A DNA stretch of 32,000 nt from Buchnera aphidicola (Neophyllaphis podocarpi) (GTDB lineage Bacteria > Pseudomonadota > Gammaproteobacteria > Enterobacterales > Enterobacteriaceae). How positions within the stretch are numbered: position 1 is the stretch's first letter; each line of letters starts with the position of its first letter. The stretch covers positions 330,001-362,000 of the forward strand of contig NZ_OZ060386.1 in assembly GCF_964059055.1 (NCBI RefSeq). Direction: 5' to 3'. Positions 1-17,237 of this stretch are shown here, piece after piece. Under the pieces are notes generated by a model. It did no database searches, was not told the DNA's origin, and was given only the letters and a program-made list of their open reading frames with translations. The translations under genes were made by a program, and so were the position numbers.

Positions 1-1370
1 GTAGACATAACAATAGAAGACAAAAAAACACGAAAAAGAAAAAATATCCATCTAAATTTTATATAAAAAAGTTTTTTTTTATATAAAAAATAAAATAATA
101 AAATCAAATTTATCCAAGACGCTAAACTAGAAGAAAGAGCAAAACTGGCATGGTGAAAAATTTCTAAAAAATATAAATTCATAAATTGAGTTAAAAAAAA
201 AGTAAATAACGAAATTAGAGAAGGAATAACAGTATTTTTTTGGGCATAAAATACCTGAATTAAAATTTTAATAAATACAAATGCTATTAATCCTAATGAA
301 TAAAATTCTAGAGATTCTTTTGTTTTAATAGTATCAAATTTAGTAAAATTTCCATATTGAAACAAAGATTCAATAATTTCCTGTGATAAAAAAAATAACA
401 AAAAAGAACAAGGTAATGCAAATAAGAAAGAAATACGTAAACCTTTATCTATAACCAACTGATAAAATTTTTTATTATTTAATAATTTTTTCTTTGATAA
501 TAAAGGTAGCAAAATAGTACTTAATGAAACTCCTAAAACACTAGCAGGAAATTCTATTAATCTATCAGAATAGTATATCCATGAAATAGATCCAGATTTC
601 AACTTAGATGAAAAGATAGCATTAGTAACAAATGAAATTTGATTTATGAAATTACCTAGTAACAAAGGTAAGAAATTTTTGAAAATTTTAAAATCAGTAA
701 ATTTTTTAAAATTTAATTTAGGTAATACCAACATATTTATTTTTTTTAAATAAGGTAACTGATATATACACTGTAATATACCTCCAAAAATAACTCCCCA
801 AGATAATGAATATATAGAAAGATCAAAATATTTAATTCCTACTAAAGAAAATACAATCATACTAAAATTTAATAATATAGGTGATATTGCGGGAATAATA
901 AAATAATTCCATACATTTAAAATAGATCCAATAAATACAGATAAAGATATTAAAATAATATAAGGAAACATTATTTTTAATAAAATTACAGAAATATCTA
1001 ATTTATCTATAGAATTTATAAAACCAGGAGCTATAAATAAAATAATTGATTTTGAAAAGATATTAAAAAATATAGTTAATAACATTGAAATTAATATTAC
1101 AAAAAATAATACATTAGAAACAAATTTTTGAATTTCTTTTAAATCATAATCTTTTTTATAAGTAGATAAAATAGGAATAAAAGTTTGAGATAGAGCACCT
1201 TCTGCAAGAATACTACGAAAAAAATTGGAAATTTTAAAAGCAATAAAAAAAGAATCTGTATATAAAGAAACACCAAAAAAATAAGCAATAATAAAATCAC
1301 GAGTAAAACCTAATAATCTAGAAAATATAGTAATAAGACTTACTCCAGCGATAGATTTTATAAAATTCAT
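1..1370 (-). CDS. murJ: Lipid II flippase MurJ (MviN), N-terminal ~456 codons; 3' end runs off the left edge of the window
   Basis: Absent from the ORF track because there is no in-window stop. Manual minus-strand translation from ATG (complement of 1368-1370) gives MNFIKSIAGVSLITIFSRLLGFTRDFIIAYFFGVSLYTDSFFIAFKISNFFRSILAEGALSQTFIPIL... The frame stays open to position 3. It is colinear with E. coli MurJ ([35 protein letters not shown]...FAEGAFSQAFVPIL; later SWIYYSDRLIEFPASVLGVSLSTILLP vs [27 protein letters not shown]). Confidence 0.9.
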   Translation of the reverse strand, partial: MNFIKSIAGVSLITIFSRLLGFTRDFIIAYFFGVSLYTDSFFIAFKISNFFRSILAEGALSQTFIPILSTYKKDYDLKEIQKFVSNVLFFVILISMLLTIFFNIFSKSIILFIAPGFINSIDKLDISVILLKIMFPYIILISLSVFIGSILNVWNYFIIPAISPILLNFSMIVFSLVGIKYFDLSIYSLSWGVIFGGILQCIYQLPYLKKINMLVLPKLNFKKFTDFKIFKNFLPLLLGNFINQISFVTNAIFSSKLKSGSISWIYYSDRLIEFPASVLGVSLSTILLPLLSKKKLLNNKKFYQLVIDKGLRISFLFALPCSFLLFFLSQEIIESLFQYGNFTKFDTIKTKESLEFYSLGLIAFVFIKILIQVFYAQKNTVIPSLISLFTFFLTQFMNLYFLEIFHHASFALSSSLASWINLILLFYFLYKKKLFYIKFRWIFFLFRVFLSSIVMS

Positions 1371-1490
1371 ATGTTGAAAATTACCTAAATAAAATTATTT
1401 AATAAAAATATAAGATTTAAAAAATATAAATTTATTAAAATTTAATTTAAAAATTAATAATATATTTTTAGAAAAAAATTTACAAACATA

Positions 1491-1552
1491 TAAAATAAAA
1501 AAATCCTCAGATGATAATTAATATATTAATTATAATATAAATCTAAGGATTT
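1491..1552 (-). terminator. Candidate rho-independent terminator downstream of rne
   Basis: Arms 1501-1512 (aaatcctcagat) and 1541-1552 (atctaaggattt) pair over 12 positions. The single non-Watson-Crick position is C.A on the plus strand but G.U on the minus-strand RNA. An inner AT palindrome lies at 1514-1533. On the minus strand the stem is followed by UUUUAUUUUA (complement of 1491-1500). It lies about 47 nt after the rne stop. Confidence 0.5.
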
Positions 1553-1598
1553 AAATATTTTAAAGAAAAAGTAGAATAAACTAATTGTAAAAAATTTT

Positions 1599-4349
1599 CT
1601 AAATAAACAAATATTTTTTATGTATATGTTTAATAAATGAAAAACTTAAACAATTATTAGATATGTTTACTCTAGAATTACTTTTTATTTTAGATGGAAT
1701 ATTATTTAAGCAATTTATTTTATTATATAGTTTACTGTTTTTATTTAAAACAACAATTTTGGTTATTGGAGCACTTGATTGATTCTTAATATGTTTCAAA
1801 AAATAAATTTTTTTATTAACTTTATTATCAAATTTATTTTTAGATATTTTTTTATAAATATTATATTTAATTTTTTTATTTAAAATTTTATTTTTTTTTA
1901 AAAATAAAATTATAATTAAATAATTAAATATTTGTTTTTTATAAAAACTGTTAATTTTGTGGTTAATAATTTTTATTATTTTAATTTTGTATTTTACATT
2001 TAAATTAACTAAATATTTTTTATATATTTTTTTTAATTTTATTTGTAAAGAGTATATAGAATAAGAAAACAAATTTGAAGATAAAAAAAATAATTTTAAT
2101 TCTACAAATAATATTTGAGCATATAAATTAAAAAATTTATTTTGATAATTTTTACATAAAAAATTCTGTAAATAGTAATTTTGATTTATATTTATAATAT
2201 AGTATAAATTATTTATAGATCTATTTGATTGTATATATGAAATTTTATATTTATTATTTATAATGTTTATTTTATAAAAATCATTTTTTATATTTATATT
2301 TTGTTTAATAAAAAATTTTTTAATATTAATTAAAAAAAATAAAGATTTTTTTTTAAAAATTTTAATAATACTTTTTATATTTTTGCTTAAATAATAAAAT
2401 TTTTTAAAAAGATAAAAATTATCAAAAAATTTATAAAATATTTTTTTTATATTATAAAAATAATTTTTAAAGACAAAAAAACAATCTAATGTAGCAATAT
2501 TATATTTTATTAATTTTTTTCTAAAATAGCTAATAGTAATATCTATTATTTTTTTAATTTTATTAAAAAACTTTTTTTTATATTTTATATATAAATTATT
2601 GATAAAACAAAAAATTGAATAAAAAAATTTTTTATGAAAATAATTTAGAATTAATTTAGTTATATTAGATATTTTATTAAAAAAATAGTTTACTTTTATA
2701 ATATTTTTAATATTTAAAGAATAATCTATTAAAAATTTATTTTTTAACTTTGAGTTACTTTTAAAAATACGCAAATCAATTTTATTTTTTATATATTTTT
2801 TTTCCAAATAATTTGAAATATCAATTTCATTAATTTTAGAAAGATGATAACTATTTTTTCTAACTTCTTCGCCTTTTTTTATTCTAATAATAGAATAATG
2901 GGGAGTATGCATAGATTTATTTGGTATAATTATAGTTTTTCCTCCATTTTGTTTTTTTTGTATTTTATTAATAGTATTACGTTTTTCATTTAATAAATAT
3001 GATGCTATTTCTATGGGCACAACAGCATGAACTTCGCAAGTATTTTCTTTTAATGACTCTTCTTCAATTAATCTTAAAATTGACAAAGATAAAGATTCGT
3101 TATCTCGGATAGCACCAGTACCAGTGCATCTAGGACAAATATGATAATTAGATTCGCTTAAAGAAGAATTTAAACGTTGTCTTGACATTTCTAATAAACC
3201 AAACCTAGAAATATTTCCTATTTGTATTCTAGCTCTGTCATTTTTAATAACTTTTTTTAATGTTTTTTCTATTATTTTTTGATGTTTTAATACAGTCATA
3301 TCAATAAAATCTATTACTATTAAACCACCTAAATCTCTCAATATTAATTGTCTAGATATTTCATTAACTGCTTCTAAATTTGTATTAAAAGCTGTTTCTT
3401 TAATATCAACTCCTTTAGTATATCTTGAAGAATTAATATCAATTGATGTAAGTGCTTCTGTTGTATCTATTATAATAGAGCCTCCAGAAGGCAATCTAAC
3501 TTTTCTTTGAAAAGCTGAATTAATTTGTGACTCAATCTGGTAATGACTAAATAAAGGAGTTTTTCCATTGTACAACTTTACTTTATTAATAAAGTCTAAG
3601 CGACCTAATAAATTTATATGTTTATATGAGAATTCTAAAATTTCTGGATTATCTATAATAATTTCCCCTATATCTGGTCTTAGATAATCTCTAAAAGCAC
3701 GAACTATTACATTACTTTCTTGATGTATTAAAAAAGGAGCCATTTTATTTTTAGCTATTTTTTGTATTTCATACCAATGTCTTAATCTAAATTTTAAATC
3801 TAATTTAAGATCTGTAATAGATTTACCTATACCAGCAGTTCTTATAATCACACTCATATTTTCAGGAATGTCTAATAAAGACAAAATATTTTTTAATTTA
3901 TCTCTATCCAATCCTTCTATACGACGAGATATTCCTCCAGAATTAGGATTATTTGGCATCAAAACTAAATAAATTCCAGCTAAACTAATAAAAGTAGTTA
4001 AAGCTGCTCCTTTACTACTACGCTCTTCTTTATTTATTTGAACTATAACTTCTTGACCTTCCTGTAAAACATTTTTGATATCAATGTGATCATTAAATAT
4101 AAAATTTGATTTCAAATATTCTTGAGAAATTTCCCTAATAGGTAAAAAACCATGTTTTTCTGTTCCATAATCAACGAAAACTGCTTCTAAACTAGGTTCT
4201 ATTCTAGTTATTTTGCCTTTATAAATATTTGATTTTTTTTGTTTATATCCAGAATTTTCTATATTAAGATTATATAAACGTTGCCCATCAACAAGAGCAA
4301 CACGAAGCTCTTCATATTGAGTTGCATTTATTAACATTCTTTTCATCAT
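1599..4349 (-). CDS. rne: Ribonuclease E; conserved catalytic N-terminal half plus highly divergent low-complexity C-terminal half
   Basis: 916-aa ORF. The first ~510 aa are colinear with E. coli RNase E (MKRMLINATQ.EELRVALVDGQRLY.L.IE, KGAALTTFISLAG.YLVLMPNNP..GGISRRIEG, Zn-link CPRCTGTGAIRDNESL). The remaining ~400 aa are K/N/I/F/Y-rich with no recognisable similarity. The start could be either of the tandem ATGs at 4349/4346. Confidence 0.95.
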   Translation of the reverse strand: MMKRMLINATQYEELRVALVDGQRLYNLNIENSGYKQKKSNIYKGKITRIEPSLEAVFVDYGTEKHGFLPIREISQEYLKSNFIFNDHIDIKNVLQEGQEVIVQINKEERSSKGAALTTFISLAGIYLVLMPNNPNSGGISRRIEGLDRDKLKNILSLLDIPENMSVIIRTAGIGKSITDLKLDLKFRLRHWYEIQKIAKNKMAPFLIHQESNVIVRAFRDYLRPDIGEIIIDNPEILEFSYKHINLLGRLDFINKVKLYNGKTPLFSHYQIESQINSAFQRKVRLPSGGSIIIDTTEALTSIDINSSRYTKGVDIKETAFNTNLEAVNEISRQLILRDLGGLIVIDFIDMTVLKHQKIIEKTLKKVIKNDRARIQIGNISRFGLLEMSRQRLNSSLSESNYHICPRCTGTGAIRDNESLSLSILRLIEEESLKENTCEVHAVVPIEIASYLLNEKRNTINKIQKKQNGGKTIIIPNKSMHTPHYSIIRIKKGEEVRKNSYHLSKINEIDISNYLEKKYIKNKIDLRIFKSNSKLKNKFLIDYSLNIKNIIKVNYFFNKISNITKLILNYFHKKFFYSIFCFINNLYIKYKKKFFNKIKKIIDITISYFRKKLIKYNIATLDCFFVFKNYFYNIKKIFYKFFDNFYLFKKFYYLSKNIKSIIKIFKKKSLFFLINIKKFFIKQNINIKNDFYKINIINNKYKISYIQSNRSINNLYYIININQNYYLQNFLCKNYQNKFFNLYAQILFVELKLFFLSSNLFSYSIYSLQIKLKKIYKKYLVNLNVKYKIKIIKIINHKINSFYKKQIFNYLIIILFLKKNKILNKKIKYNIYKKISKNKFDNKVNKKIYFLKHIKNQSSAPITKIVVLNKNSKLYNKINCLNNIPSKIKSNSRVNISNNCLSFSFIKHIHKKYLFI

Positions 4350-4702
4350 AAATCTCTAGTATAATTTTTGTAAACTTTCATATAAAAAAATAAAATATTT
4401 AAATATTAATATATAAAAATATTTTTTATAAAAATAATTATTTATTATTTAGAACAATAAATTCTAAATAATATAAAACTTATTAAAATTTATTATGGTT
4501 TTATAAAACTTTTTGTAATATTAATTAATATATAATATTATAAATAAAATATAATTATAAAAAACATAAAAATAAAATTATTTTATTAAATAAAAAATAT
4601 TTATTTTATAATAAATAAAAATTTTATTGAATATAATCAATTTAAATATAAATTAAATAAACATTTTTGATTAATAAAAAATTAAGAAGAAAAATCTAAA
4701 AA

Positions 4703-5631
4703 ATGACACACATCATTATAAACATCGATGAAAATAATATAAATCAAAGAATTGACAATTTTTTAAAAAAAAAATAAAAAAAATACACAAAAATACAATT
4801 TATAAAATATTACGTAAAGGAAATATACGTGTAAATAAAAAGAGAGTTAAACCAAAATATAAATTAAAAAATAAAGACATAGTAAAAATAACTAATATAA
4901 AATTTCAAAATAAGACTAATAAATATATCGATAAAAATATTATTAAACTAGAAAAAAGTATATTATATGAAGATAATTATTTAATAATAATAAATAAACC
5001 AGTTGGAATATCTGTACATGGAGGAAGTGGTATAAATTATGGTATTATAGAAAGAATAAGATTGCTTAGATCTAAAGTTAAATATTTAGAACTTGTACAT
5101 CGTCTTGATAAAGATACATCTGGAATTTTAATAATAGCAAAAAAAAGATCTACATTAGTATCCTTGCATAAACAAATTAGAGAACTGAAAGTTAAAAAAA
5201 AATATTTAACTTTAGTACATGGATTATGGTCTAAAAAAATTAAAAAAGTTGATTTACCTATATTAAAAAATAAAAAAAATAAAGGAATAAACTTAGTCAA
5301 AATTAGTTCATTAGGTAAAAAATCTCAGACTATTTTTGAAATCAAAAAAAAATATTTTAATATGACATTATTATATGCAATACCTGTTACAGGCAGAACT
5401 CATCAAATAAGAATTCATACATCTCATATAGGAAATCCTATAATTTTTGATAATAAATATGGTAATAAAATATTAGATAATAAAATTAATATTCAAAATT
5501 TAAGAAAAAAAATAATATTACATGCATATTCTATGAAATTCATACACCCTAATACTAAAAGTGAATTTTATATACAAGCACCTTTAAGTATAGAATTGAA
5601 AAAATACCTAAAAAGTCTAAACAACAATTAA
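4703..5631 (+). CDS. rluC: 23S rRNA pseudouridine synthase RluC, reading frame interrupted by a frameshift in an A10 tract (strictly a frameshifted gene; possibly rescued by slippage)
   Basis: ATG 4703 encodes [24 protein letters not shown], then TAA at 4775-4777. The -1 frame from 4774 continues [31 protein letters not shown]...[20 protein letters not shown]...GRTHQIRIH to the stop at 5631. Both halves align to E. coli RluC (..[60 protein letters not shown]). The ORF-track start at 5062 (TTG) would remove the S4 domain. Confidence 0.88.
4765..4774 (+). repeat. A10 homopolymer at the rluC frameshift site (followed by T then A8, 4776-4783)
   Basis: Counted directly: positions 4765-4774 are all A. 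The upstream frame is 4703 mod 3 and the downstream frame is 4774 mod 3, which differ by -1. Confidence 0.95.
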
Positions 5632-5666
5632 AATATAAAATATTTAAATTAATAAAAGGATATAAC

Positions 5667-5834
5667 ATGGCTGTACAAAAAAGCAAACCTACAAGATCGA
5701 AAAGAGGAAAAAGAAGATCTCACAGTGCATTAAAAATACCTGCTATTTCTAATGATAGAATTACAGGAGAAAAACATCTATTTCATCACATAACTACAAA
5801 TAAAAATTACAAAGGAAAAAAATTTTTTAAATAA
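5667..5834 (+). CDS. rpmF: 50S ribosomal protein L32
   Basis: Not in the ORF track (55 aa). Translation is [55 protein letters not shown], versus E. coli L32 [22 protein letters not shown]...SGEKHLRHHIT. SD AAGGA lies at 5656-5660. Confidence 0.95.
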
Positions 5835-5857
5835 AAAATTTTTAAATAAAAAATAGT

Positions 5858-5886
5858 ACTGTCAATTAAAAAAATAAATTGACAGT
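5858..5886 (+). terminator. Perfect 10-bp hairpin downstream of rpmF (possible terminator or attenuator before fabD)
   Basis: actgtcaatt (5858-5867) and aattgacagt (5877-5886) are exact reverse complements with a 9-nt A-rich loop. There is no strong U tract afterwards. Confidence 0.4.
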
Positions 5887-5927
5887 TAAATATAAAAATA
5901 ATTTAAAAAAATTAAAAGGATTTTCTT

Positions 5928-6881
5928 ATGAAATATGCAGTAATATTTCCAGGACAAAATTTTCAATCTATTAAAAATCTAAATAATCTTGCAAAAAAAT
6001 ATTCTTCGATTAAAAAAAAATTTTATGAAGCATCTGATTATTTAAATTGTAATTTATGGAATATAATACAAAATTTAGATGAAAAAAAAATTAATCTTAA
6101 TAATTATATACAACCTATTATACTAACAATATCTGTATCTATATATAATATATGGAAACAAAAAAAACAAAAAAAACCTACTATTATGGTTGGGCACAGT
6201 TTAGGAGAATATTCTGCTTTAGTATGCTCAAACAGTATAAATTTTGGTGATGCTTTAAAATTAATTATGATTAGAAGTAAATTAATGCAAGAAGTTTCAA
6301 TAAAAAATGAAGGATTAATGTATGCTATTGTGGGTATAGATAAAAATATTATAAATAACATATGTAATTTAGTTTCAAATAAAGAAATAGTTTCTATTGC
6401 AGCAATAAATTCTCCTGATCAAGTAATAATTTCCGGAAACAAAAATTCTATAATTAAAACTATTAAAATATGTAAAAATATTGGAGCAAAATATGTAATT
6501 AAATTACCAACAAAAATTCCTTCTCATTGTATATTAATGAAAGATATATCAATTATTTTTAAAAAAAAATTAAAAAAAATAAAATTTAAAAATCCTAAAT
6601 ATTTATTTATAGATAATGCAAATGCAAAATTTATTAATTCTGAATCTGATATTAAAAATTCTCTAGTAAAACAATTATATTGTCCAATATTATGGACAGA
6701 AGTTATGAAACTTATAGAAAAAAAAATTTTTTTATCAATTGAAATAGGGACTAAAAATATATTAAGTAATATTAATAAATATTTAACTAAAATCAACTCA
6801 TTAACAATTAACAATGAAAAAAACTTATATACTGCATTAAAATATATATTAAATAAAAAGGAAAATAATAAAAATGTCTAA
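5928..6881 (+). CDS. fabD: Malonyl-CoA:ACP transacylase
   Basis: 317-aa ORF with SD AAGGA upstream. It carries the active-site GHSLGEYSALV, IRSKLMQE (Arg) and PSHCILM (His), colinear with E. coli FabD. The N-terminal FPGQGSQ motif reads FPGQNFQ here. Confidence 0.9.
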   Translation: MKYAVIFPGQNFQSIKNLNNLAKKYSSIKKKFYEASDYLNCNLWNIIQNLDEKKINLNNYIQPIILTISVSIYNIWKQKKQKKPTIMVGHSLGEYSALVCSNSINFGDALKLIMIRSKLMQEVSIKNEGLMYAIVGIDKNIINNICNLVSNKEIVSIAAINSPDQVIISGNKNSIIKTIKICKNIGAKYVIKLPTKIPSHCILMKDISIIFKKKLKKIKFKNPKYLFIDNANAKFINSESDIKNSLVKQLYCPILWTEVMKLIEKKIFLSIEIGTKNILSNINKYLTKINSLTINNEKNLYTALKYILNKKENNKNV

Positions 6882-7592
6882 AAAAAAATAGCTTTAGTTA
6901 CAGGAGCTACAAGAGGTATAGGAAAATCTATAGCTCAAAATTTAACAAAAAGTAATTTTTTCGTGATTGGTACATCAACAAATAAGGAAGGAGTTAAACA
7001 AATTAGTAATTATTTACAAAATAATGGTTGTGGTTTAATATTACAGTTAGAAAAAATACAATCTATTGATAATATATTTAAAAAATTTAAAAACATAGAT
7101 GTATTAATAAATAATGCAGGTATTATATGTGATAAATTAATTACAAATATGAATATTGAAGATTGGAATAAAGTAATAGACATAAATTTAAAATCAGTTT
7201 TTTATTTATCTAAAAATGTTATAAAACATATGTCAAAAAATAATTATGGGAGAATTATTAATATAAGCTCTATATCTGGATTTACAGGCAATGTTGGACA
7301 ATCTAACTATTCAGCTTCAAAAGCAGGAATTGTAGGATTTACAAAATCTATTGCATTAGAAGTTGCTTTAAAAGGAATTACTGTAAATAATATATCTCCT
7401 GGGTTAATTAATACTAATTTGACTAAAAAATTAACAAATAAACAAAAAATAAAATTTATATCAAAAATACCAATGAAAAGATTTGGTAATGTACAAGAAG
7501 TAGCTGATTTAATATTATTTTTAGTCTCAAAAAAATCTTCATATATTACGGGGCAAACTATACATATAAATGGTGGAATGTATATGACTTAA
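6874..7592 (+). CDS. fabG: 3-oxoacyl-ACP reductase FabG, start codon out of frame with the body across an A9 tract (frameshifted; possibly rescued by slippage)
   Basis: SD AAGGAAA (6858-6864) precedes ATG 6874, which reads ATG TCT AAA AAA AAA TAG. The conserved body starts in the -1 frame at 6888: IALVTGATRGIGKSIAQNL...NNAGI...YSASKAG...GGMYMT, versus E. coli FabG MNFEGKIALVTGASRGIGRAIAETL. That frame has no ATG/GTG/TTG before GTG 6963, which lies after the TGxxxGIG cofactor motif. Confidence 0.85.
6880..6888 (+). repeat. A9 homopolymer at the fabD stop / fabG frameshift site
   Basis: Counted directly: 6880-6888 are all A. The fabD stop TAA occupies 6879-6881. The fabG body is in the same frame as fabD. 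Confidence 0.95.
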
Positions 7593-7658
7593 TTTTTGTA
7601 TTTAAAATAGTTTTAAAATTAAATTAGTTTTTAATAAAATTATAAGAGAAAATAAAAC

Positions 7659-7898
7659 ATGAGCAATATAAAATCTAGAATAAAAAAAATTATATGTGAA
7701 CAATTAGATTTAGAAGAAAATAAAATTAAGAATGATTCTTCTTTTGTAGATGATCTAGGAGCAGATTCATTAGATACAGTAGAACTTATTATGGCATTTG
7801 AAGAAGAATTTAATATAGAAATAAAAGATGAAGATGCAGAAAATATAACAACAGTTCAAGAAGCAGAATTTTATATTACACAACATATTAATAAATAA
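7659..7898 (+). CDS. acpP: Acyl carrier protein
   Basis: 79-aa ORF containing [21 protein letters not shown] (phosphopantetheine Ser in DSLD), colinear with E. coli AcpP. Confidence 0.96.
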
Positions 7899-7904
7899 AT
7901 AATT

Positions 7905-7942
7905 AGAATTTAGTGATGTGATCGCTAAATTCTTTATTTTTC
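7905..7942 (+). terminator. Rho-independent terminator after acpP
   Basis: agaatttagtga (7905-7916) pairs with tcgctaaattct (7922-7933): 12 bp including one U.G wobble in the plus-strand RNA, with a 5-nt loop. It is followed by ttatttttc. Confidence 0.65.
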
Positions 7943-7990
7943 ATATAATTAAAATAACATTAAATTATATAAAATATTTTAGTGAAAAAA

Positions 7991-8632
7991 ATGAAAGGCA
8001 AATTTATTGTAATAGAAGGAATAGAAGGTGCAGGTAAAACTAGCGCTATTAATTATATAGCTCACATTTTACGGAAAGAACATAAAATAAAAAAAATTAA
8101 AATAGTACGTGAACCTGGAAATACACCTATTGCAGAAAAATTAAGAAAGTTAATAAAAAAAGGAAACAAAAATGAAGAACTAACAGACATATCCATGTTA
8201 TTATTGATCTATGCCGCTAGAATACAATTAATCAAAAAAATCATAAAACCTTCTATAAAAAAAGGTTCCTGGGTAATTGGAGATCGTCATACTTTATCTT
8301 CTTTTGCATATCAAGGAGGAGGTTTTAAGATAGAAGATAAAATAATTAACAAAATTCATAAAATATCTATGGATAATTTTAAACCAAATTTGACGTTATT
8401 TTTAGATGTTTTACCTTCTATTGGATTAAAACGTATTCTTTCAAGAAAAAATAGAGATATCATAGAAAATAAATCAATTAATTTTTTTAAAAATACTAGA
8501 AAAAAGTATATTAAATTAATTAAACATGATAAAAAAATTATAAAAATTAATGCAAATCTAAAAATTAATCAAGTTTATAGATTAATTAAAAATAAATTAA
8601 ATAGTTGGATAAAAATAGAAAAGTGTTTATAA
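7991..8632 (+). CDS. tmk: Thymidylate kinase
   Basis: MKGKFIVIEGIEGAGKT (P-loop), REPGNTPIAEKLR, GDRHTLSSFAYQGGG, colinear with E. coli Tmk (MRSKYIVIEGLEGAGKTT). The ORF track starts at in-frame GTG 7982. ATG 7991 matches the E. coli N-terminus better, so the start is uncertain by 9 nt. Confidence 0.9.
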   Translation: MKGKFIVIEGIEGAGKTSAINYIAHILRKEHKIKKIKIVREPGNTPIAEKLRKLIKKGNKNEELTDISMLLLIYAARIQLIKKIIKPSIKKGSWVIGDRHTLSSFAYQGGGFKIEDKIINKIHKISMDNFKPNLTLFLDVLPSIGLKRILSRKNRDIIENKSINFFKNTRKKYIKLIKHDKKIIKINANLKINQVYRLIKNKLNSWIKIEKCL

Positions 8633-9603
8633 GTTTACTGCCATGGTTAATTTCTCCTTATGAAAAATTTATTCTAAAACGTAAAAAAAAATTAGCAAAT
8701 AAAAATATTTTAATAAAATCAGAAGTAGAATTAGGAGCTAAATTTTTATTGTGGCAAATAAGTCGTTTAATATTATGCAAAAATAATAAACATAACAATA
8801 TTTGTGATAAATGTTATGAATGCAATTTAATGAAATTAAAAAACCATCCAGATTTTTATTATATAAATAGTAAAAAAATAGGAATAGAAGAAATAAAAGA
8901 ATTAAAATTGAAAATATTTATAAAACCTCAAATAAACCAAAATAAAATAATCTGGTTGTCTAATATAGAAAATATATCAGAATACGGAATAAATTCTTTA
9001 TTAAAAATATTAGAAGAACCACCTACAAATGTATGGTTTTTAATGTATCATGAAGGATCTACAGAAATCACAAAAACATTAAATAGTAGATGTATTAAAT
9101 ACCTATTAAAAACCCCTGCAGAAAAAACAAGTTTAATGTGGTTAAAAACTAAAAATAATTATACAAAATATACGAATTTAACTGCTTTAAGATTAAATAA
9201 TAATTCACCTATATTAGCCAAAAAATTCTTAGATAGTTTTTTTATGAAAGAAAAAAATAATTTGTTTAAAATTTTAAATTATTCTATCAATGAATTAAAT
9301 CTAATGAACTTATTACCTTTAATGCAAAAAAATAACACAATAATTAAAATTAATTGGATATACATTCTATTATTAGATGCTATTAAATTAAAAAATCAAA
9401 TAAATGAGTATTTAATAAATTTGGATAATCTAAATTTAATTAAAAAACTATCTATGAAATATTCGTATGAAAAATTATTTTTTAGTATAAAATTTTGGAT
9501 TAAATGTAAAAAAAGAATAATTAAAATAAAAGGTATTAATTATCAATTAATATTGACAGAACAATTATTAAAATGGGAAGAAATTTTAGATTTTAAACAA
9601 TAA
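8605..9603 (+). CDS. holB: DNA polymerase III delta-prime subunit
   Basis: LPWLISPYEKF aligns with E. coli YPWLRPDFEKL, and LLKILEEPPTNVWFLM...LNSRCIKY with LLKTLEEPPAETWFFL...LRSRCRLH. The gene overlaps the tmk 3' end. The start is either TTG 8605 or GTG 8623. Confidence 0.82.
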   Translation: MDKNRKVFISLLPWLISPYEKFILKRKKKLANKNILIKSEVELGAKFLLWQISRLILCKNNKHNNICDKCYECNLMKLKNHPDFYYINSKKIGIEEIKELKLKIFIKPQINQNKIIWLSNIENISEYGINSLLKILEEPPTNVWFLMYHEGSTEITKTLNSRCIKYLLKTPAEKTSLMWLKTKNNYTKYTNLTALRLNNNSPILAKKFLDSFFMKEKNNLFKILNYSINELNLMNLLPLMQKNNTIIKINWIYILLLDAIKLKNQINEYLINLDNLNLIKKLSMKYSYEKLFFSIKFWIKCKKRIIKIKGINYQLILTEQLLKWEEILDFKQ

Positions 9604-9622
9604 ATTAAAAGAGATATATCTT

Positions 9623-10417
9623 ATGTTTTTAGTAGATTCTCACTGTCATATTAGTAATTTAAATTCAATTAATGATAATATTTTAATAAATAATATAATA
9701 AATAGAGCTTTTAAAAAAAATATTAAATTTATTTTAGCTGTATCTACATCGATTAAAGATTTTTATAAAATAAAAAAAATAATAAAAAACAAAAAAAATA
9801 TAAAATGTTCTTGTGGAATTCATCCTTCATATATAAATAATAAAGAAGATTTTACAGAGTTAAAAAAAATATCTAAATATAATTTAGTTATAGCAATAGG
9901 TGAAACAGGATTAGATTATTATAAATGTTATACTCCCAAAACAAAACAACAAAATATTTTTCGTAAACATATAAATATTGCGTGCTCAGAAAAAAAACCA
10001 CTAATAGTACATACAAGAAATGCTATTCAAGATACCTTATCAATATTAAAAGAAGAAAAAGCAGAAAAATGTAGTGGAGTAATTCATTGTTTTAATGAAG
10101 ATATAATAGCAGCTAAAAAAATACTAGATATAAATTTTTATATTTCTTTTTCTGGAATTATAACTTTTAAAAATACAAATAAATTCATAGATATCATTAA
10201 ATTTGTTCCTATAAGTAAAATTCTTATAGAAACTGATTCTCCATACTTATCACCTGAACCATATAGAGGTATAAAAAATGAGCCATCTTTTTTAATAGAA
10301 ATTGCTAAAAAAATAGCTATTATTAAAAATAAAAGTGTTAATGAAATAGCAAAACAAACAACAAAAAATTTTTTTAAATTATTTAATAAAGTTACAAACT
10401 TTAACATGAAACATTAA
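9623..10417 (+). CDS. ycfH: TatD-family metal-dependent deoxyribonuclease/hydrolase YcfH
   Basis: 264-aa ORF with TatD motifs: N-terminal VDSHCHI, GETGLDYY, IHCF and ETDSPYL. Its position after holB matches E. coli. Confidence 0.85.
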   Translation: MFLVDSHCHISNLNSINDNILINNIINRAFKKNIKFILAVSTSIKDFYKIKKIIKNKKNIKCSCGIHPSYINNKEDFTELKKISKYNLVIAIGETGLDYYKCYTPKTKQQNIFRKHINIACSEKKPLIVHTRNAIQDTLSILKEEKAEKCSGVIHCFNEDIIAAKKILDINFYISFSGIITFKNTNKFIDIIKFVPISKILIETDSPYLSPEPYRGIKNEPSFLIEIAKKIAIIKNKSVNEIAKQTTKNFFKLFNKVTNFNMKH

Positions 10418-10492
10418 CAATTTTTATTTAAATATTTTACTATTGTATTAATTATTATAAAAAAAAATATTTATTATTTAGGATTTTATAAA

Positions 10493-11938
10493 ATGTTCAA
10501 AAATTCATTTGCAAACTTGCAAAAAGTAGGTAAATCACTAATGTTACCTGTATCAGTATTACCTATAGCAGGTATTTTATTAGGACTAGGATCTGCCAAT
10601 TTTGTATTTATTCCTAATATCATGTCACACATTATGGCTGAAGCAGGAAGCTCTGTATTTAATAACATGCCATTAATATTTGCTATAGGTGTAGCATTAG
10701 GATTTACAAATAACGATGGAGTTGCTGCTTTAGCTGCCGTGATTGCATATGGCATAATGATAAAGACTTTAAATGTTGTAACATCTTTTAATGTAGTAAA
10801 TAAAATTTTACTACATAATAGCATTATACCAATTAAACAATTAAATGATACTGGAATATTAGGAGGTATAATAGCAGGAGCAGTAGCTGCATTCATGTTT
10901 AATAAATTTTATCGTATTAAATTACCAGAGTATCTAGGATTTTTTGCAGGTAAAAGATTTGTTCCTATTATTTCTGGTTTAGCATCTATTATATTAGGAA
11001 TAATACTATCATTTATATGGCCTCACATAGGATTTTTAATTAAAAAATTTTCTGAATGGGCTGCTTACCAAAATCCTATTTTAGCCTTTGGAATATATGG
11101 AATTGTTGAAAGAACACTAGTACCATTTGGCTTACATCACATATGGAATGTTCCATTTCAAATGCAGATAGGTGAATATATTAACTCTTCAGGCCAAATA
11201 TTTCATGGAGATATTTCAAGATATATGGCTGGAGATATGACAGCAGGAAAATTATCCGGAGGTTTTTTATTCAAAATGTATGGTTTACCAGCTGCTGCTA
11301 TAGCAATATGGCATAGTTCTAAAAAAGAAAATAAAGCTAAGATAGGAGGAATAATGCTATCAGCAGCATTAACGGCTTTTCTTACAGGAATAACAGAACC
11401 TATAGAATTTTCTTTTATTTTGGTAGCTCCAATTTTATATGTCATTCACGCAATATTAGCAGGTTTAGCTTTTCCTTTATGCATAGCATTAGATATGAAA
11501 TCTGGAACTAGTTTTTCTCACGGTTTAATTGATTTTTTAGTTTTAAGCGGTCATAGTAATAATATACTATTATTTCCTATAGTAGGAGTGATTTATGGAT
11601 TAATTTACTATCTTATATTTTATTTTGTAATAATTAAATTTAATTTAAAAACTCCTGGAAGAGAAGAATATTCAAAATATATTTTAACAAAAAAAGATGA
11701 TTCTGAAATAGCAAAACTTATAGTAGATGCCTTAGGAGGCAAAAAAAATATAAAAAACCTAGATGCTTGTATTACAAGATTAAGAGTAAGTGTTTTAGAA
11801 ATACAAAAGGTAAATAAAAATAAACTAAATAAATTAGGTGCAGCAGGAGTAATAATTTCAGGATTAGGAGTACAAGCAATTTTTGGTACAAAATCAGACA
11901 ACTTAAAAACAAAAATAGACGAATATTTAAATAAATAA
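10493..11938 (+). CDS. ptsG: PTS glucose-specific EIICB component
   Basis: 481-aa ORF. The N-terminus [33 protein letters not shown] is typical of the EIIC(Glc) family. The C-terminal EIIB domain carries the phospho-cysteine motif [10 protein letters not shown]. Confidence 0.95.
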
Positions 11939-11983: not shown

Positions 11984-12330
11984 ATGAAAAAAAAAATATT
12001 TTTGAAAAAATTATAAAAAAAGAAATAAAATCAGAAATAGTTTACCAAGATGAAAAAATTACAGCCTTTAAAGATATTAATCCTAAAGCTCCTATACATA
12101 TAATTATTGTACCAAATAAATTTATAAAAAATATGAATGAAATTACTATAAAACATAGCAAAATAATTTTTCATATGTTTTATACAGCAGTTAAAATAGC
12201 AAAAATGAAAAATATAGATTTTAGTGGATATAAATTAATTATAAATTGCAATAAAGATGGAGGACAAATAATTCCTTATTTACATATGCATTTAATAGGA
12301 GGTATAAAATTAAGTAATTTTATAGTTTAA
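11984..12330 (+). CDS. hinT: HIT-family purine nucleoside phosphoramidase HinT (YcfF), start codon out of frame with the body across an A10 tract (frameshifted; possibly rescued by slippage)
   Basis: SD AAGAGA (11971-11976) precedes ATG 11984, which reads ATG AAA AAA AAA ATA TTT TTG AAA AAA TTA TAA. The -1 frame from 11995 reads [42 protein letters not shown]...HMHLIGG. E. coli HinT is [45 protein letters not shown]...HMHLLGG. The first canonical start in the body frame is ATG 12133, which would lose the nucleotide-binding N-terminal half. Confidence 0.85.
11987..11996 (+). repeat. A10 homopolymer at the hinT frameshift site
   Basis: Counted directly: 11987-11996 are all A, immediately after ATG 11984-11986. 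Confidence 0.95.
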
Positions 12331-12446
12331 AACTTCTTAAATTATAATCAGAAATAAAATATAAAATTAACTTTAATATTTTTAAAAAATAAAAATTTAT
12401 AAGTAATACTAAAAATTATTATTTTATAATAAATTTATTTAATAAT

Positions 12447-12482
12447 TAAGTTAATATTAATTAATAAATTAATATTAACTTA
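12447..12482. terminator. Perfect 16-bp AT-rich hairpin between convergent hinT and ycaR (possible bidirectional terminator)
   Basis: 12447-12462 (taagttaatattaatt) is the exact reverse complement of 12467-12482, with a 4-nt loop (aata). Only one G:C pair is present, so it is thermodynamically weak. Confidence 0.35.
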
Positions 12483-12509
12483 TAAAAATAATTTTTATTA
12501 TATTATATA

Positions 12510-12662
12510 CTAATTATTAATTTTTAATAAATTAGGAATTTTATTATCAATAGGCCATATAATTTTATCATTATTACATATTAACTCATTTTTTGTACTA
12601 TTAAAAATTAATTTATTAAAACATATTGGACAAGCTAAAATATTTAATAAATTATTATCCAT
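12510..12662 (-). CDS. ycaR: Small Trm112-like/UPF0434 zinc-ribbon-type protein YcaR (50 aa)
   Basis: Not in the ORF track. Minus-strand translation from ATG (complement of 12660-12662) to TAG (12510-12512) gives MDNNLLNILACPICFNKLIFNSTKNELICNNDKIIWPIDNKIPNLLKINN. E. coli YcaR, recalled from memory, is [50 protein letters not shown]. Confidence 0.75.
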   Translation of the reverse strand: MDNNLLNILACPICFNKLIFNSTKNELICNNDKIIWPIDNKIPNLLKINN

Positions 12663-13366
12663 ATAAACTCAAAATAAAATGATAATATCATAAAATTATA
12701 ATATCATAAACTTATATTAAATTTTTATTAAAAAAGCTATAAAATACATTTTTATTCGAAATTATAATATAAATTTTTAAATAGAAATATTTAATTTATA
12801 ATTAAATAAAAATAAAACAATTTATGATTAACATTTTATTAAAATTAATAGTTAAATTTGATTTTTTGTATTATAAATTTCTATATTCAAAATAAATAAA
12901 TATAAAATATATTATTTGTAAAATTACATAATAAAAAAACTAAATTTTATTTATATAAAAATATTTATTATTAAAAAATATTAAAATATAAATTAGTATA
13001 GTTAATATAAAAAGTATAAATTCGATAAAATTTTTAATTTTTTAAAAAACTGAATTAAATATAAAAATCATAAAAATAAATTTAGTAATCAAAAAATTTA
13101 ATTTATATATATATATTAAAAAAATTTTAGTTATATAAAAATATAATAATTAAATTAAATTTTATTTTATTAAATTAAATTAGATTTAACTTAAAAAGTA
13201 AATTAATATTATTTTTAAAATTTAATTATATTAATTTTTAAAATTAAATATCTTTATAAAAACAAAATTAAAATATTATATTTAATATATAGATTTAAGA
13301 AAATAAAATTAAAATAAAAATATTTTTTACATAATTGTGACTTTAAAAATAAATATAAATAAAATT
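12663..13366. other. 704-bp gene-free hyper-AT spacer (about 5% G+C by line counts); no ORF and no structured-RNA-like G+C island
   Basis: The track shows no ORF on either strand. Individual 60-nt lines contain only 2-4 G/C. The spacer contains a short (TA)6 run at 13104-13116. Confidence 0.6.
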
Positions 13367-14770
13367 TTAAAAATTAGCATTATGTATTGTTCTTGGAAAA
13401 GGAGCTATATCTTTAATATTTTTAATACCTGTAACATAAGATAAAAGTCTTTCAAATCCTAAACCAAAACCAGAATGAGGAACTGTACCATAAACACGGA
13501 GATCACGATACCACCAATAATCTTCTTTTTTTAGTCCTAACTCTTTAATTCTATCATCTAACTCTGTTAATCTCTCTTCTCTTTGAGATCCTCCAATTAG
13601 TTCACCTACTCTAGGTACTAATAAATCCATAGAAGCTACGGTTTTATTGTCATCGTTTAGTCTCATATAAAAAGCTTTCATACTTTTAGGAAAATTTTTA
13701 ATAAAAACAATTTTTTTAAAATGTTGTTCACAAATATATTTTTCTTGTTCTGATGATAAATCATCTCCAAACAATATTTTTTTATTATTAAAGTTTACAT
13801 TAGCATTATTTAATATTTCAATTACTTCACAATAATCAATTTGTATAAAATTATATTCTAAACTTTGTTCTAATTTATCTAATAAATTTATATTCGTATA
13901 TTCTGAAAAAAAAATAAGTTCATCTTTACATTTTTTTAATAAAATATTAAATAAATATTTTAAAAATAACTCAACAAAAATTATTATATGATTTAAATCA
14001 CTAAATGCTATCTCTAATTCTAACATCCAAAATTCTGATAAATGTCTACTTGTATTTGAGTTTTCAGCTCTGAAAGTAGGACCAAAAGAATAAACGTTAG
14101 ATAAAGCACAAGCATATGCTTCTAAATTTAATTGACCAGAAACAGTTAAAAATGTTTTTTTACCAAAAAAATTATCTTTATAAATACCATGATTAAAATT
14201 ATAATCATTTTTTGTTTTTTGAGAAGACGATGAAACAGAAAAAGTATCTCCAGCGCCTTCAGTATTAATACTTGTAATTATAGGAGTAGGAACCCAAAAA
14301 AAACCTTTACGATGCAAAAATTTATGCAAATAATAGTTTAGAGTATTTCTTACTCTGGATATTGATCCTATGATATTAGTTCTAGGCCTTAAATGAGCTA
14401 CTTCTCTTAAATATTCTAAGGTATGTTTTTTAGAAGAAATAGGATATGTATTTGGATTAAATACTGATCCAGCAATTTTTATTTCTTTAGATAAAATTTC
14501 ATATTTTTGTAAATTACCTAAAGAATTTATTATTTTTCCTTTAACAGTTAATGAACATCCTGTTGTTATATTTATAATTTCACTATAATAATTATTTAAA
14601 GTATTTTTAGATATTATTTGTATAGTATTTAAACAAGAACCATCATATAAATTAATAAAAGAAATACCTATTTTAGAATCTCTTTTTGTACGAACCCAGC
14701 CATTAATAATAATATCAGAGTTTAGATTAAAATTACCTTGATATATATCTTTGATAGTAATAACTTTCAT
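13367..14770 (-). CDS. asnS: Asparaginyl-tRNA synthetase
   Basis: 467-aa ORF colinear with E. coli AsnS throughout (GWVRTKRDSKIGISF, REVAHLRPRTN, FGPTFRAENSNTSRHLSEFWMLE, GGSQREER, GTVPHSGFGLGFERL, PFPRT). Confidence 0.97.
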   Translation of the reverse strand: MKVITIKDIYQGNFNLNSDIIINGWVRTKRDSKIGISFINLYDGSCLNTIQIISKNTLNNYYSEIINITTGCSLTVKGKIINSLGNLQKYEILSKEIKIAGSVFNPNTYPISSKKHTLEYLREVAHLRPRTNIIGSISRVRNTLNYYLHKFLHRKGFFWVPTPIITSINTEGAGDTFSVSSSSQKTKNDYNFNHGIYKDNFFGKKTFLTVSGQLNLEAYACALSNVYSFGPTFRAENSNTSRHLSEFWMLELEIAFSDLNHIIIFVELFLKYLFNILLKKCKDELIFFSEYTNINLLDKLEQSLEYNFIQIDYCEVIEILNNANVNFNNKKILFGDDLSSEQEKYICEQHFKKIVFIKNFPKSMKAFYMRLNDDNKTVASMDLLVPRVGELIGGSQREERLTELDDRIKELGLKKEDYWWYRDLRVYGTVPHSGFGLGFERLLSYVTGIKNIKDIAPFPRTIHNANF

Positions 14771-17148: not shown

Positions 17149-17237
17149 TAAATTCACCAAATATTTATATAATTTTAAATTTATATTTTAAAAGCTAACT
17201 ATTTATCAAAAATATCATTTATAATAAAAATATAATT

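What the first reader, a model, noticed from the sequence alone, without database searches (positions are those of the whole stretch)
4703..4800. rluC is split inside an A10 tract; exactly one extra A restores an E. coli-colinear protein
The SD-preceded ATG at 4703 encodes [24 protein letters not shown] and then hits TAA at 4775-4777.

The conserved continuation of the S4 domain ([31 protein letters not shown]) is in the -1 frame starting at 4774. That frame stays open for about 285 codons to 5631. It has no ATG/GTG/TTG before 5062.

The junction is A10 (4765-4774), then T, then A8. With A11 the product reads [15 protein letters not shown]. That is the same 13-residue spacing as E. coli [15 protein letters not shown].

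An inactivated gene in this mutational regime should quickly acquire further stops. The long intact downstream frame therefore argues the gene is still expressed.
Basis: partly seen in the sequence, partly recalled or inferred. Interest (0 to 1): 0.7.

Follow-up and report, generated by a model that had tools for sequence, protein, structure and literature searches.

The report
Conserved poly(A) frameshift in Buchnera rluC
The rluC gene of this aphid endosymbiont (Buchnera) really is broken by a run of ten A's, but it has stayed under strong selection in related genomes, so it is most likely still expressed by polymerase or ribosome slippage, a rescue route already known in insect endosymbionts and already annotated by the genome's depositors.

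Summary
ATG 4703 opens 24 codons that end at TAA 4775-4777. A10 (4765-4774), T and A8 form the junction. The -1 frame is open to 5631. Adding one A gives a 309-aa protein that aligns without gaps to E. coli and other Buchnera RluC and has a complete S4 domain plus the catalytic domain.

The window comes from Buchnera aphidicola of Neophyllaphis aphids. Two other Illumina-sequenced genomes (95.7% and 99.5% identical), and Logan re-assemblies that match each of them, all carry the same A10-T-A8.

Between the two lineages rluC has dN/dS 0.11, against 0.10-0.29 for neighbouring genes. It has no indels, while 2.3 kb of spacer has about 17. Substitutions upstream of every possible internal start are almost all synonymous. 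The gene is therefore functional and neither an assembly error nor a decaying pseudogene.

The most likely mechanism is +1 A transcriptional slippage. A -1 ribosomal slip on A_AAA_AAA before the TAA would give the same protein.

This class has been known since 2008. The depositors already filed exactly this 309-aa RluC. fabG and hinT in the same window show the same pattern. Expression itself is untested.

The parts
4703..5631 (+). Whole rluC gene (23S rRNA pseudouridine 955/2504/2580 synthase), split into two frames at the A10 tract
   Evidence: The restored 309-aa product scores 363 bits against NCBIfam RluC NF008249 and 258 bits against TIGR00005. Pfam finds S4 and PseudoU_synth_2. The catalytic domain matches PDB 1xpi/1v9k (E. 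coli RluC) at E 4e-69. The rne / rluC / rpmF-fabD-fabG order matches E. coli.
4684..4689 (+). Weak Shine-Dalgarno-like AAGAAG, 13 nt upstream of the ATG
   Evidence: Read directly from the sequence. The spacing is 14 nt in L001 because of an A6/A7 difference at 4697.
4703..4777 (+). Frame-0 segment: codons 1-24 (first part of the S4 domain) plus the premature TAA
   Evidence: It contains the invariant Q15, R16, D18, N19 and F20. Only two substitutions separate it from L001, and both are synonymous.
4765..4774 (+). A10 tract: the frameshift site, the proposed slippage site (A10 to A11 in mRNA) and an A_AAA_AAA slippery heptamer in frame 0
   Evidence: The length is identical in the window and in L001-L004. 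Other Buchnera have an in-frame A9 or A7 at this position.
4775..4777 (+). Frame-0 stop codon TAA immediately 3' of the tract
4776..4783 (+). A8 tract, which reads (AT)A AAA AAA A(TA), i.e. I-K-K-I, in the restored frame
   Evidence: It lies at or after the frame-0 stop, so slippage here cannot rescue the gene.
4774..5631 (+). -1 frame segment: codons 25-309 plus TAA 5629-5631. It holds the rest of S4, the catalytic domain and the conserved HRLD Asp at 5107-5109.
   Evidence: dN/dS is 0.116 in this frame and 1.1-1.8 in the other two.

Best explanation
rluC of this Neophyllaphis-aphid Buchnera carries a genuine 1-bp deletion in a lysine-coding poly(A) tract. The genome has A10 where the reading frame needs A11. 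The deletion is inherited and predates the split of the sampled lineages.

The gene is still functional. A fraction of its expression products regain the frame at the tract and yield full-length 309-aa RluC with an intact S4 RNA-binding domain and catalytic domain.

The most likely route is transcriptional slippage: RNA polymerase slips back on the T10 template and adds one extra A, giving A11 mRNA. A -1 slip of tRNA-Lys on A_AAA_AAA when the ribosome meets the adjacent TAA would give the same protein and may contribute. Unslipped messages yield only a 24-aa peptide, so the tract also lowers RluC output.

Shown here: the lesion, its conservation and purifying selection on both halves. Inferred: the slippage step and the existence of the protein.
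For: - **Lesion and repair.** One added A gives a gap-free, colinear RluC with a complete S4 domain. The S4 profile is covered at positions 1-48 (32 bits). ORF2 alone covers only positions 18-48, and the RefSeq 274-aa call scores 22 bits, below the cut-off.
- **Lesion is real.** A10-T-A8 is identical in the window, in CP135039 (95.7% identical), in CP135042 (99.46% identical) and in the Logan assemblies SRR29340286/7. CP135039 and CP135042 were sequenced on an Illumina NovaSeq by a different group. The same data resolve A7/A8 and A9/A7 differences elsewhere, and a T11 is called at 17096-17106.
- **Selection on codons.** dN/dS is 0.107 overall and 0.033 for codons 25-120. Codons 1-34 show 3 synonymous and 0 non-synonymous changes (P=0.019 against the intergenic mutation spectrum). 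Codons 1-120 show 14 and 2 (P=2e-8). Neighbouring genes range from 0.096 to 0.29.
- **Selection on frame.** rluC has no indels despite 22 A/T runs of 5 or more bases, against about 17 indels in 2.3 kb of spacer. In spacers, 6 of 7 runs of 7 or more bases changed length.
- **Precedent.** In Buchnera and Blochmannia, 12-50% of transcripts of poly(A)-frameshifted genes have a corrected frame (Tamas 2008, as cited in PMC5009743 and PMC3017870). Buchnera RNA polymerase mostly makes +1 insertions in A/T runs, and the rate rises exponentially with run length (PMC5574713). Slippage becomes evident at about nine A's (PMC1088944).
- **Same pattern nearby.** fabG (A9) and hinT (A10) in this window also need +1 A.
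- **Depositor annotation.** The depositors filed the identical 309-aa product.
Against: - There are no RNA or protein data for this organism.
- The transcriptome-wide Buchnera study found no transcription error that restored a broken frame (PMC5574713).
- Only two effectively independent lineages were sampled. The tract is hypermutable, so parallel recent deletions cannot be strictly excluded.
- The N-terminal 24 codons alone give a weak test: 2 synonymous and 0 non-synonymous changes, P=0.08.
- Transcriptional and ribosomal slippage cannot be told apart from sequence.
- RluC is dispensable in E. coli under laboratory conditions (my own knowledge).
Confidence: 0.75

Rival explanations
1. Full-length RluC is made mainly by -1 ribosomal frameshifting. 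Peptidyl-tRNA-Lys, or the tandem Lys tRNAs, slip back one base on A_AAA_AAA while the A site holds the slowly decoded TAA. Translation then continues at ATA 4774.
For: A perfect X_XXY_YYZ heptamer lies in frame 0, directly followed by a stop codon. A -1 shift on AAA-AAA rescues 1-bp deletions in E. coli without any change in the mRNA (PMC1851650). The product would be identical to the A11 product.
Against: There is no stimulatory structure downstream: minimum free energy -3.4 kcal/mol, z-score -0.47. No internal SD-like sequence is visible upstream. Single-tRNA slips on A-AAA are reported at only 0.3-1%. In endosymbionts the demonstrated route is transcriptional.
Confidence: 0.15
2. The gene is a recently inactivated pseudogene. 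No full-length RluC is made, and the intact frame only reflects too little time for decay.
For: Homopolymer indels are the usual first step of gene erosion in Buchnera (PMC3017870, citing Moran 2009). RefSeq does not call a full-length protein.
Against: The lesion is shared by lineages separated by dS of about 0.2. Over that distance rluC shows dN/dS of 0.11, no indels and no stops, while spacers gained about 17 indels in 2.3 kb. Three genes would each need parallel, very recent hits in both lineages.
Confidence: 0.07
3. Only an N-terminally truncated RluC is made, either from a non-canonical start (RefSeq uses ATA 4807, giving 274 aa) or by reinitiation at ATA 4774 after termination at the overlapping TAA. 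The 24-codon ORF is a leader.
For: PGAP annotates ATA starts for rluC, fabG and hinT in all three genomes. The A-TAA overlap resembles stop-start coupling.
Against: Codons 1-34 show only synonymous changes and retain all the invariant S4 residues and the ATG. The truncated forms lose S4 profile positions 1-17 or 1-22 and fall to or below the Pfam cut-off. ATA is a very poor initiator (my own knowledge).
Confidence: 0.07
4. It is a sequencing or assembly artefact: the true genome has A11.
For: Long homopolymers are error-prone. Both A10 tracts in the window sit at apparent frameshifts.
Against: Three genomes from two laboratories and two independent re-assemblies agree on A10. Tract lengths of 9, 10 and 11 are all called in the same data, and at least 13 A9/T9 tracts are in frame. 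PGAP and the depositor both had to work around a broken frame.
Confidence: 0.04
5. There is tract-length heterogeneity at the DNA level. Buchnera is highly polyploid (my own knowledge), and a minority of chromosome copies carry A11 and supply the functional mRNA.
For: Replication slippage on A10 is expected to be frequent. Homopolymer lengths do differ between strains.
Against: The consensus is A10 in every assembly. I recall that Tamas 2008 found homogeneous DNA and heterogeneous cDNA; that paper was not held in the library, so this is not checked here.
Confidence: 0.05

Closest known systems
Poly(A)-tract frameshifted genes of insect endosymbionts rescued by transcriptional slippage (Buchnera cell-wall genes and a Blochmannia histidine-biosynthesis gene, Tamas et al. 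2008; the ancient conserved frameshifts of Wernegreen et al. 2010; eight Blochmannia vafer genes including dnaX, dnaG and pth, PMC3017870)
   Same: There is a single 1-bp indel inside an A run of 9 or more bases. The gene is otherwise intact. The frameshift is conserved between species and evolutionary rates are not raised. The genome is extremely AT-rich.
   Different: rluC has not been reported as a case in the searchable literature. All three cases in this window lie within the first 24 codons and all need +1 A. There are no cDNA or protein data here.
Thermus thermophilus dnaX and IS-element transposases that use programmed transcriptional slippage on A9 (PMC1088944)
   Same: A run of 9 or more A's in the sense strand yields mRNAs of mixed length, so one locus gives products in two frames.
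   Different: In those cases both products are used. Here the unslipped product is a 24-aa peptide with no evident role, so the slippage is corrective rather than product-diversifying.
E. coli dnaX -1 programmed ribosomal frameshift (A_AAA_AAG) and the pDEST17 AAA-AAA shift (PMC1851650)
   Same: There is a lysine slippery heptamer and a shift into the -1 frame.
   Different: Neither a downstream stem-loop nor an upstream SD stimulator is present. The only candidate stimulator is the adjacent stop codon.
E. coli RluC (b1086; PDB 1xpi and 1v9k)
   Same: The restored protein is colinear with it and about 45% identical. It has the same S4 plus RluA-type catalytic architecture and the conserved HRLD aspartate, and it lies next to rne.
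   Different: The gene is broken by the frameshift. The protein is extremely Lys/Ile/Asn-rich. Its score is 15 bits under the NCBIfam equivalog cut-off.

Membership tests
RluC (23S rRNA pseudouridine 955/2504/2580 synthase) | RluA-type catalytic domain with the conserved HRLD aspartate | tested here: met
   PF00849 scores 99.9 bits. TIGR00005 scores 258.5 bits against a cut-off of 192.7. D136 in HRLDKDTSG is invariant in the alignment. The match to the E. coli RluC crystal-structure chains has E 4e-69.
RluC (23S rRNA pseudouridine 955/2504/2580 synthase) | N-terminal S4 RNA-binding domain | tested here: met
   The domain is complete only in the +1A product: PF01479 32 bits, residues 15-61, profile positions 1-48. 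It is truncated in ORF2 alone and in the 274-aa call.
RluC (23S rRNA pseudouridine 955/2504/2580 synthase) | Score above the curated equivalog cut-off (NF008249, 378 bits) | tested here: inconclusive
   The score is 363.2 bits, 15 bits short. It is still the best family by more than 230 bits over RluD. A shortfall is not surprising for a protein encoded in DNA of about 18.5% GC.
RluC (23S rRNA pseudouridine 955/2504/2580 synthase) | Orthologous position next to rne, upstream of rpmF-fabD-fabG | tested here: met
   The window order is rne(-), rluC(+), rpmF, fabD, fabG. In E. coli the order is rne(-), yceQ, rluC ... rpmF, plsX.
RluC (23S rRNA pseudouridine 955/2504/2580 synthase) | Forms pseudouridine at 23S positions 955, 2504 and 2580 | not testable with these tools
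   This needs pseudouridine mapping of Buchnera rRNA.
Endosymbiont poly(A) frameshift rescued by transcriptional slippage | The frameshift lies inside an uninterrupted A/T run of 9 or more bases, and a 1-nt change restores a full-length colinear product | tested here: met
   The tract is A10, and +1 A gives the 309-aa RluC without alignment gaps.
Endosymbiont poly(A) frameshift rescued by transcriptional slippage | The gene is otherwise intact and under purifying selection, and the frameshift is conserved between lineages | tested here: met
   dN/dS is 0.107, with no indels or stops. The same A10 is present in three genomes representing two lineages.
Endosymbiont poly(A) frameshift rescued by transcriptional slippage | Heterogeneous mRNA pool containing frame-corrected transcripts while the DNA is homogeneous | not testable with these tools
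   No RNA data are available. This needs a gDNA/cDNA amplicon comparison.
Endosymbiont poly(A) frameshift rescued by transcriptional slippage | Full-length protein is produced | not testable with these tools
   No proteomic data are available.
Programmed -1 ribosomal frameshift (dnaX type) | X_XXY_YYZ slippery heptamer in the zero frame | tested here: met
   A_AAA_AAA occurs at 4765-4771 and at 4768-4774 in the frame of ATG 4703.
Programmed -1 ribosomal frameshift (dnaX type) | Stimulatory RNA structure 5-9 nt downstream | tested here: not met
   Region 4775-4874 folds at -3.4 kcal/mol, z-score -0.47, and 58 of 200 shuffles fold at least as well.
Programmed -1 ribosomal frameshift (dnaX type) | Internal Shine-Dalgarno stimulator about 10 nt upstream | tested here: not met
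   The upstream sequence CAAAGAATTGACAATTTTTT has no GGAGG-like element.
Decaying pseudogene | Relaxed constraint (dN/dS near 1) and accumulation of further indels and stops | tested here: not met
   dN/dS is 0.107 in the restored frame and 1.1-1.8 in the wrong frames. No indels occur, against about 4-7 expected from spacer rates.

The most novel reading that the evidence does not exclude
The out-of-frame tract lengths may be held by selection as built-in expression attenuators. This would apply to A10 in rluC, A9 in fabG and A10 in hinT. All three lie within the first 24 codons, all need +1 A, and all are unchanged between lineages, whereas 6 of 7 intergenic runs of 7 or more bases changed length. 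A genome that has lost most transcriptional regulation (my own knowledge) would then use RNA-polymerase slippage frequency at 5'-proximal poly(A) tracts to set low protein doses at minimal cost in wasted translation. On this reading the tracts are programmed realignment sites and not merely tolerated lesions.
Probability: 0.12. Interest if true: 0.55.

Novelty: already known. Interest (0 to 1): 0.22.

Why it matters
The result matters mainly for annotation and for metabolic or ribosome-biogenesis inventories of reduced genomes.

- RefSeq's pipeline turns this gene into a 274-aa "RluA family" protein with an ATA start, and Prodigal-type callers give 189-205 aa. The biologically sensible product is the 309-aa RluC, as filed by the depositors. 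The same applies to fabG and hinT.
- The case adds a well-supported comparative example of a conserved, selected poly(A) frameshift. It has two lineages, dS of about 0.2 and three genes within 8 kb.
- All three frameshifts need +1 A, which fits the +1 insertion bias of Buchnera RNA polymerase.
- It does not open a new mechanism.

Tried and rejected
- Exact-protein look-ups for the window's rpmF and for P0122 found no contig, so the window's own record could not be fetched. The window's identity was inferred from exact matches of three restored proteins to CAL accessions on the 559,180-bp contig.
- The single genome-contig scan with the restored protein returned only a Donacia symbiont and three SAR11 genomes, with no Buchnera. 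A broad survey of tract length across Buchnera species was therefore not possible. Two Buchnera loci were fetched by protein look-up instead.
- Tamas 2008 (PMC2567471) and Wernegreen 2010 (PMC2877537) are not held in the library. Their findings are cited through PMC3017870 and PMC5009743.
- A downstream frameshift-stimulating structure was looked for and not found.
- Rfam and tRNA scans of the window found nothing.
- T11 at 17096-17106 was considered as an in-frame long tract. The TrhO profile starts only at residue 29 of that ORF, so the tract may lie upstream of the true start. It is used only as evidence that 11-mers are called.
- The N-terminal 24 codons alone do not give a significant selection test (P=0.08).

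Full report
**1. The observation**

- ATG 4703 opens 24 codons ([24 protein letters not shown]) that end at TAA 4775-4777.
- The junction is A10 (4765-4774), T 4775 and A8 (4776-4783).
- The -1 frame is open from 4756, after TGA 4753-4755, to TAA 5629-5631. Its first canonical start is TTG 5062.
- Inserting one A gives a 309-aa protein. Removing two A's also restores the frame with one lysine fewer, so "exactly one extra A" is the colinear repair, not the only one.
- The "SD" is a weak AAGAAG 13 nt upstream of the ATG.

**2. What the gene is**

- The restored protein scores best against NCBIfam RluC: NF008249 at 363 bits, 15 bits under the 378-bit equivalog cut-off. The next equivalog, RluD, scores 126 bits. 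It passes the RluA-subfamily model.
- Pfam finds PseudoU_synth_2 (residues 93-242) and an S4 domain (residues 15-61) that straddles the junction.
- The catalytic part matches the E. coli RluC crystal-structure chains at E 4e-69.
- An alignment with E. coli RluC (taken from NC_000913.3), six other Buchnera, Histophilus and Erwinia has no gap across the junction. ORF1 carries the residues invariant in that alignment: Q15, R16, D18, N19 and F20.
- Without ORF1 the S4 match is truncated to profile positions 18-48. The 274-aa RefSeq form falls below the Pfam cut-off. The TTG-5062 ORF also loses the first 33 profile positions of the catalytic domain.
- Gene order (rne divergent from rluC, then rpmF-fabD-fabG-acpP-tmk-holB-ycfH-ptsG) matches E. 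coli.

**3. Where the window comes from, and who has seen this before**

- The closest database protein (94% identical) is from Buchnera aphidicola of Neophyllaphis podocarpi.
- Its 90% cluster holds a 309-aa entry, CAL4322981.1, on a 559,180-bp contig. That entry is letter-for-letter my +1A reconstruction.
- The same contig has a RefSeq entry of 274 aa that starts at an ATA codon.
- The depositors therefore already recognised the split and annotated the corrected product. PGAP and Prodigal-type callers give 274, 205 or 189 aa.
- No paper in the searchable library mentions an rluC frameshift in Buchnera.

**4. Is the A10 real?**

- I fetched the homologous loci from CP135039 (N. podocarpi, L001, 95.7% identical to the window over 11.6 kb) and CP135042 (N. 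varicolor, L002, 99.46% identical).
- I also fetched two Logan assemblies, L003 (SRR29340286) and L004 (SRR29340287). L003 aligns to the window with almost the same coordinates and identity as L002. L004 gives the same alignment as L001.
- All five sequences read A10-T-A8.
- The two CP genomes were sequenced on an Illumina NovaSeq 2x150 by a different group (PMC11193766).
- The same data resolve A7/A8, A6/A7 and A9/A7 differences between strains in spacers. They also call tracts of 9, 10 and 11 bases.
- A systematic under-call of one base is therefore not credible.

**5. Is the gene decaying?**

It is not. The comparison below is between the window and L001.
- The restored gene has 32 synonymous and 16 non-synonymous differences: dS 0.20, dN 0.022, dN/dS 0.107.
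- Codons 25-120 lie upstream of any canonical internal start. They have 12 synonymous and 2 non-synonymous changes, giving dN/dS of 0.033.
- Codons 1-24 have 2 and 0.
- Eight neighbouring intact genes give dN/dS of 0.096-0.29. The two wrong frames of rluC give 1.1 and 1.8.
- Against the substitution spectrum measured in the flanking spacers, the excess of synonymous changes has P=0.019 for codons 1-34, 2e-8 for codons 1-120 and 8e-12 overall. Codons 1-24 alone give P=0.08.
- About 17 indels, mostly +/-1 in A/T runs, separate the two lineages in 2.3 kb of spacer. None lies in the 929 bp of rluC, which holds 22 runs of 5 or more bases, including the A10, two A9 and four A8.
- Six of seven intergenic runs of 7 or more bases changed length, while the rluC A10 did not.

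Both halves of the gene, and its frame relationship, have therefore been under purifying selection since the lineages split with the lesion in place.

**6. Origin of the lesion**

- Other Buchnera have shorter, in-frame tracts at this position. Aphis nasturtii Buchnera reads TTG AAA AAA AAA TTT (A9). A Logan-assembled relative reads ATA AAA AAA TTT (A7).
- All other Buchnera RluC hits are 310-314 aa and carry S4.
- In Neophyllaphis the Phe codon has become Ile (ATA). The in-frame state would then be A11, and the genome has A10.
- I infer that the tract lengthened by substitution and then lost one base.

**7. Mechanism (inferred)**

- The body of the gene is in the -1 frame relative to the ATG. 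Either one extra A in the mRNA or a -1 ribosomal slip gives the same FLKKKIKK product.
- Transcriptional slippage is the documented route in this biological setting. Frameshifted Buchnera and Blochmannia genes yield 12-50% corrected transcripts (Tamas 2008, as summarised in PMC5009743, and PMC3017870).
- Slippage becomes evident at about nine A's in bacteria (PMC1088944).
- In Buchnera, 151 of 157 transcription insertions fall in homopolymers. Most are +1, and the rate rises exponentially with run length (PMC5574713).
- That study also notes it saw no frame-restoring event, which is a caveat.
- A ribosomal contribution is possible. A_AAA_AAA is a slippery heptamer, the next codon is TAA, and AAA-AAA supports -1 shifting in E. 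coli (PMC1851650).
- However, there is no downstream structure (z-score -0.47) and no upstream SD-like stimulator.
- The A8 tract overlaps and follows the stop, so it cannot rescue the gene.

**8. The same pattern in two neighbouring genes**

- fabG reads ATG 6874, TCT, A9 (6880-6888), then TAG. With +1 A it reads MSKKKIALVTGATRGIG.
- hinT reads ATG 11984, A10 (11987-11996). With +1 A it reads [14 protein letters not shown]....
- Both restored proteins are exactly the depositor's entries, CAL4323043.1 and CAL4323164.1. RefSeq again uses ATA starts.
- The fabG A9 is identical in L001 and L002. The RefSeq HinT proteins of both other genomes read ...EKKN..., which implies the same A10.
- For these two genes a non-canonical in-frame start cannot be excluded.

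**9. Verdict**

The case belongs to the known class of conserved, selection-maintained poly(A) frameshifts of insect endosymbionts, and the genome's depositors had already annotated it. Its value lies in annotation and as a clean comparative example. It does not reveal a new mechanism. Direct RNA, protein or pseudouridine evidence is still missing.

Noticed in passing
window 6874-7592 (+); tract 6880-6888: fabG shows the same lesion. It reads ATG-TCT-A9-TAG, and the conserved IALVTGATRGIG body lies in the -1 frame. Adding one A gives the 239-aa MSKKKIALVTG... protein, identical to the depositor's CAL4323043.1, while RefSeq uses an ATA start at 6888 (234 aa). The A9 is unchanged in L001 and L002. 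The ATG overlaps the end of fabD.
   Followed up: partly
window 11984-12330 (+); tract 11987-11996: hinT (a HIT-family purine nucleoside phosphoramidase) reads ATG-A10 with its body in the -1 frame. Adding one A gives the 115-aa [11 protein letters not shown]... protein, identical to CAL4323164.1. RefSeq uses ATA 11977 (117 aa). The same A10 is implied in the N. varicolor and N. podocarpi genomes by their ...EKKN... proteins. Both A10 tracts in the window sit at such frameshifts.
   Followed up: partly
window 1-11650 compared with L001 and L002: The window's genome is labelled Buchnera of Neophyllaphis podocarpi (CAL4323164.1). It is 99.46% identical to CP135042 (labelled N. varicolor) and only 95.7% identical to CP135039 (labelled N. 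podocarpi). This suggests a host misidentification or cryptic species in one of the data sets.
   Followed up: no
window 6866-6881 (3' end of fabD): A 1-bp A5/A4 difference at 6870 between the window and L001 changes the last codons of fabD (317 against 320 aa called). It is a tolerated frameshift at the extreme C-terminus, just upstream of the fabG ATG.
   Followed up: no
window 4807, 6888, 11977: RefSeq PGAP resolves all three broken 5' ends by choosing ATA as the start codon. These are probably gene-caller artefacts, and they hide the frameshifts from anyone who uses the RefSeq proteins.
   Followed up: partly
window 17096-17106 (T11 on +, A11 on the - strand): The longest homopolymer in the window lies at codons 19-22 of the TTG-started ORF 16192-17160 (trhO/yceA). 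The TrhO profile starts only at residue 29, so the true start may be downstream and the tract may lie in the 5' leader.
   Followed up: partly
window 12663-13366: This roughly 700-bp stretch has no ORF of 30 aa or more, and the enclosing 2-kb bin (12001-14000) has about 14% GC. It lies between a 50-aa zinc-ribbon-like ORF (12510-12662, - strand) and the 467-aa ORF at 13367-14770 (- strand), which I take to be asnS from its sequence but did not scan. It may be the remnant of an eroded gene. The whole 32-kb window has no tRNA and no Rfam hit.
   Followed up: no
window 5833-5848: A 16-bp segment (AAATAAAAAATTTTTA-like) at the rpmF stop and 3' flank is present in the window and L002 but absent in L001. 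It was the largest internal indel in the 11.6-kb comparison.
   Followed up: no
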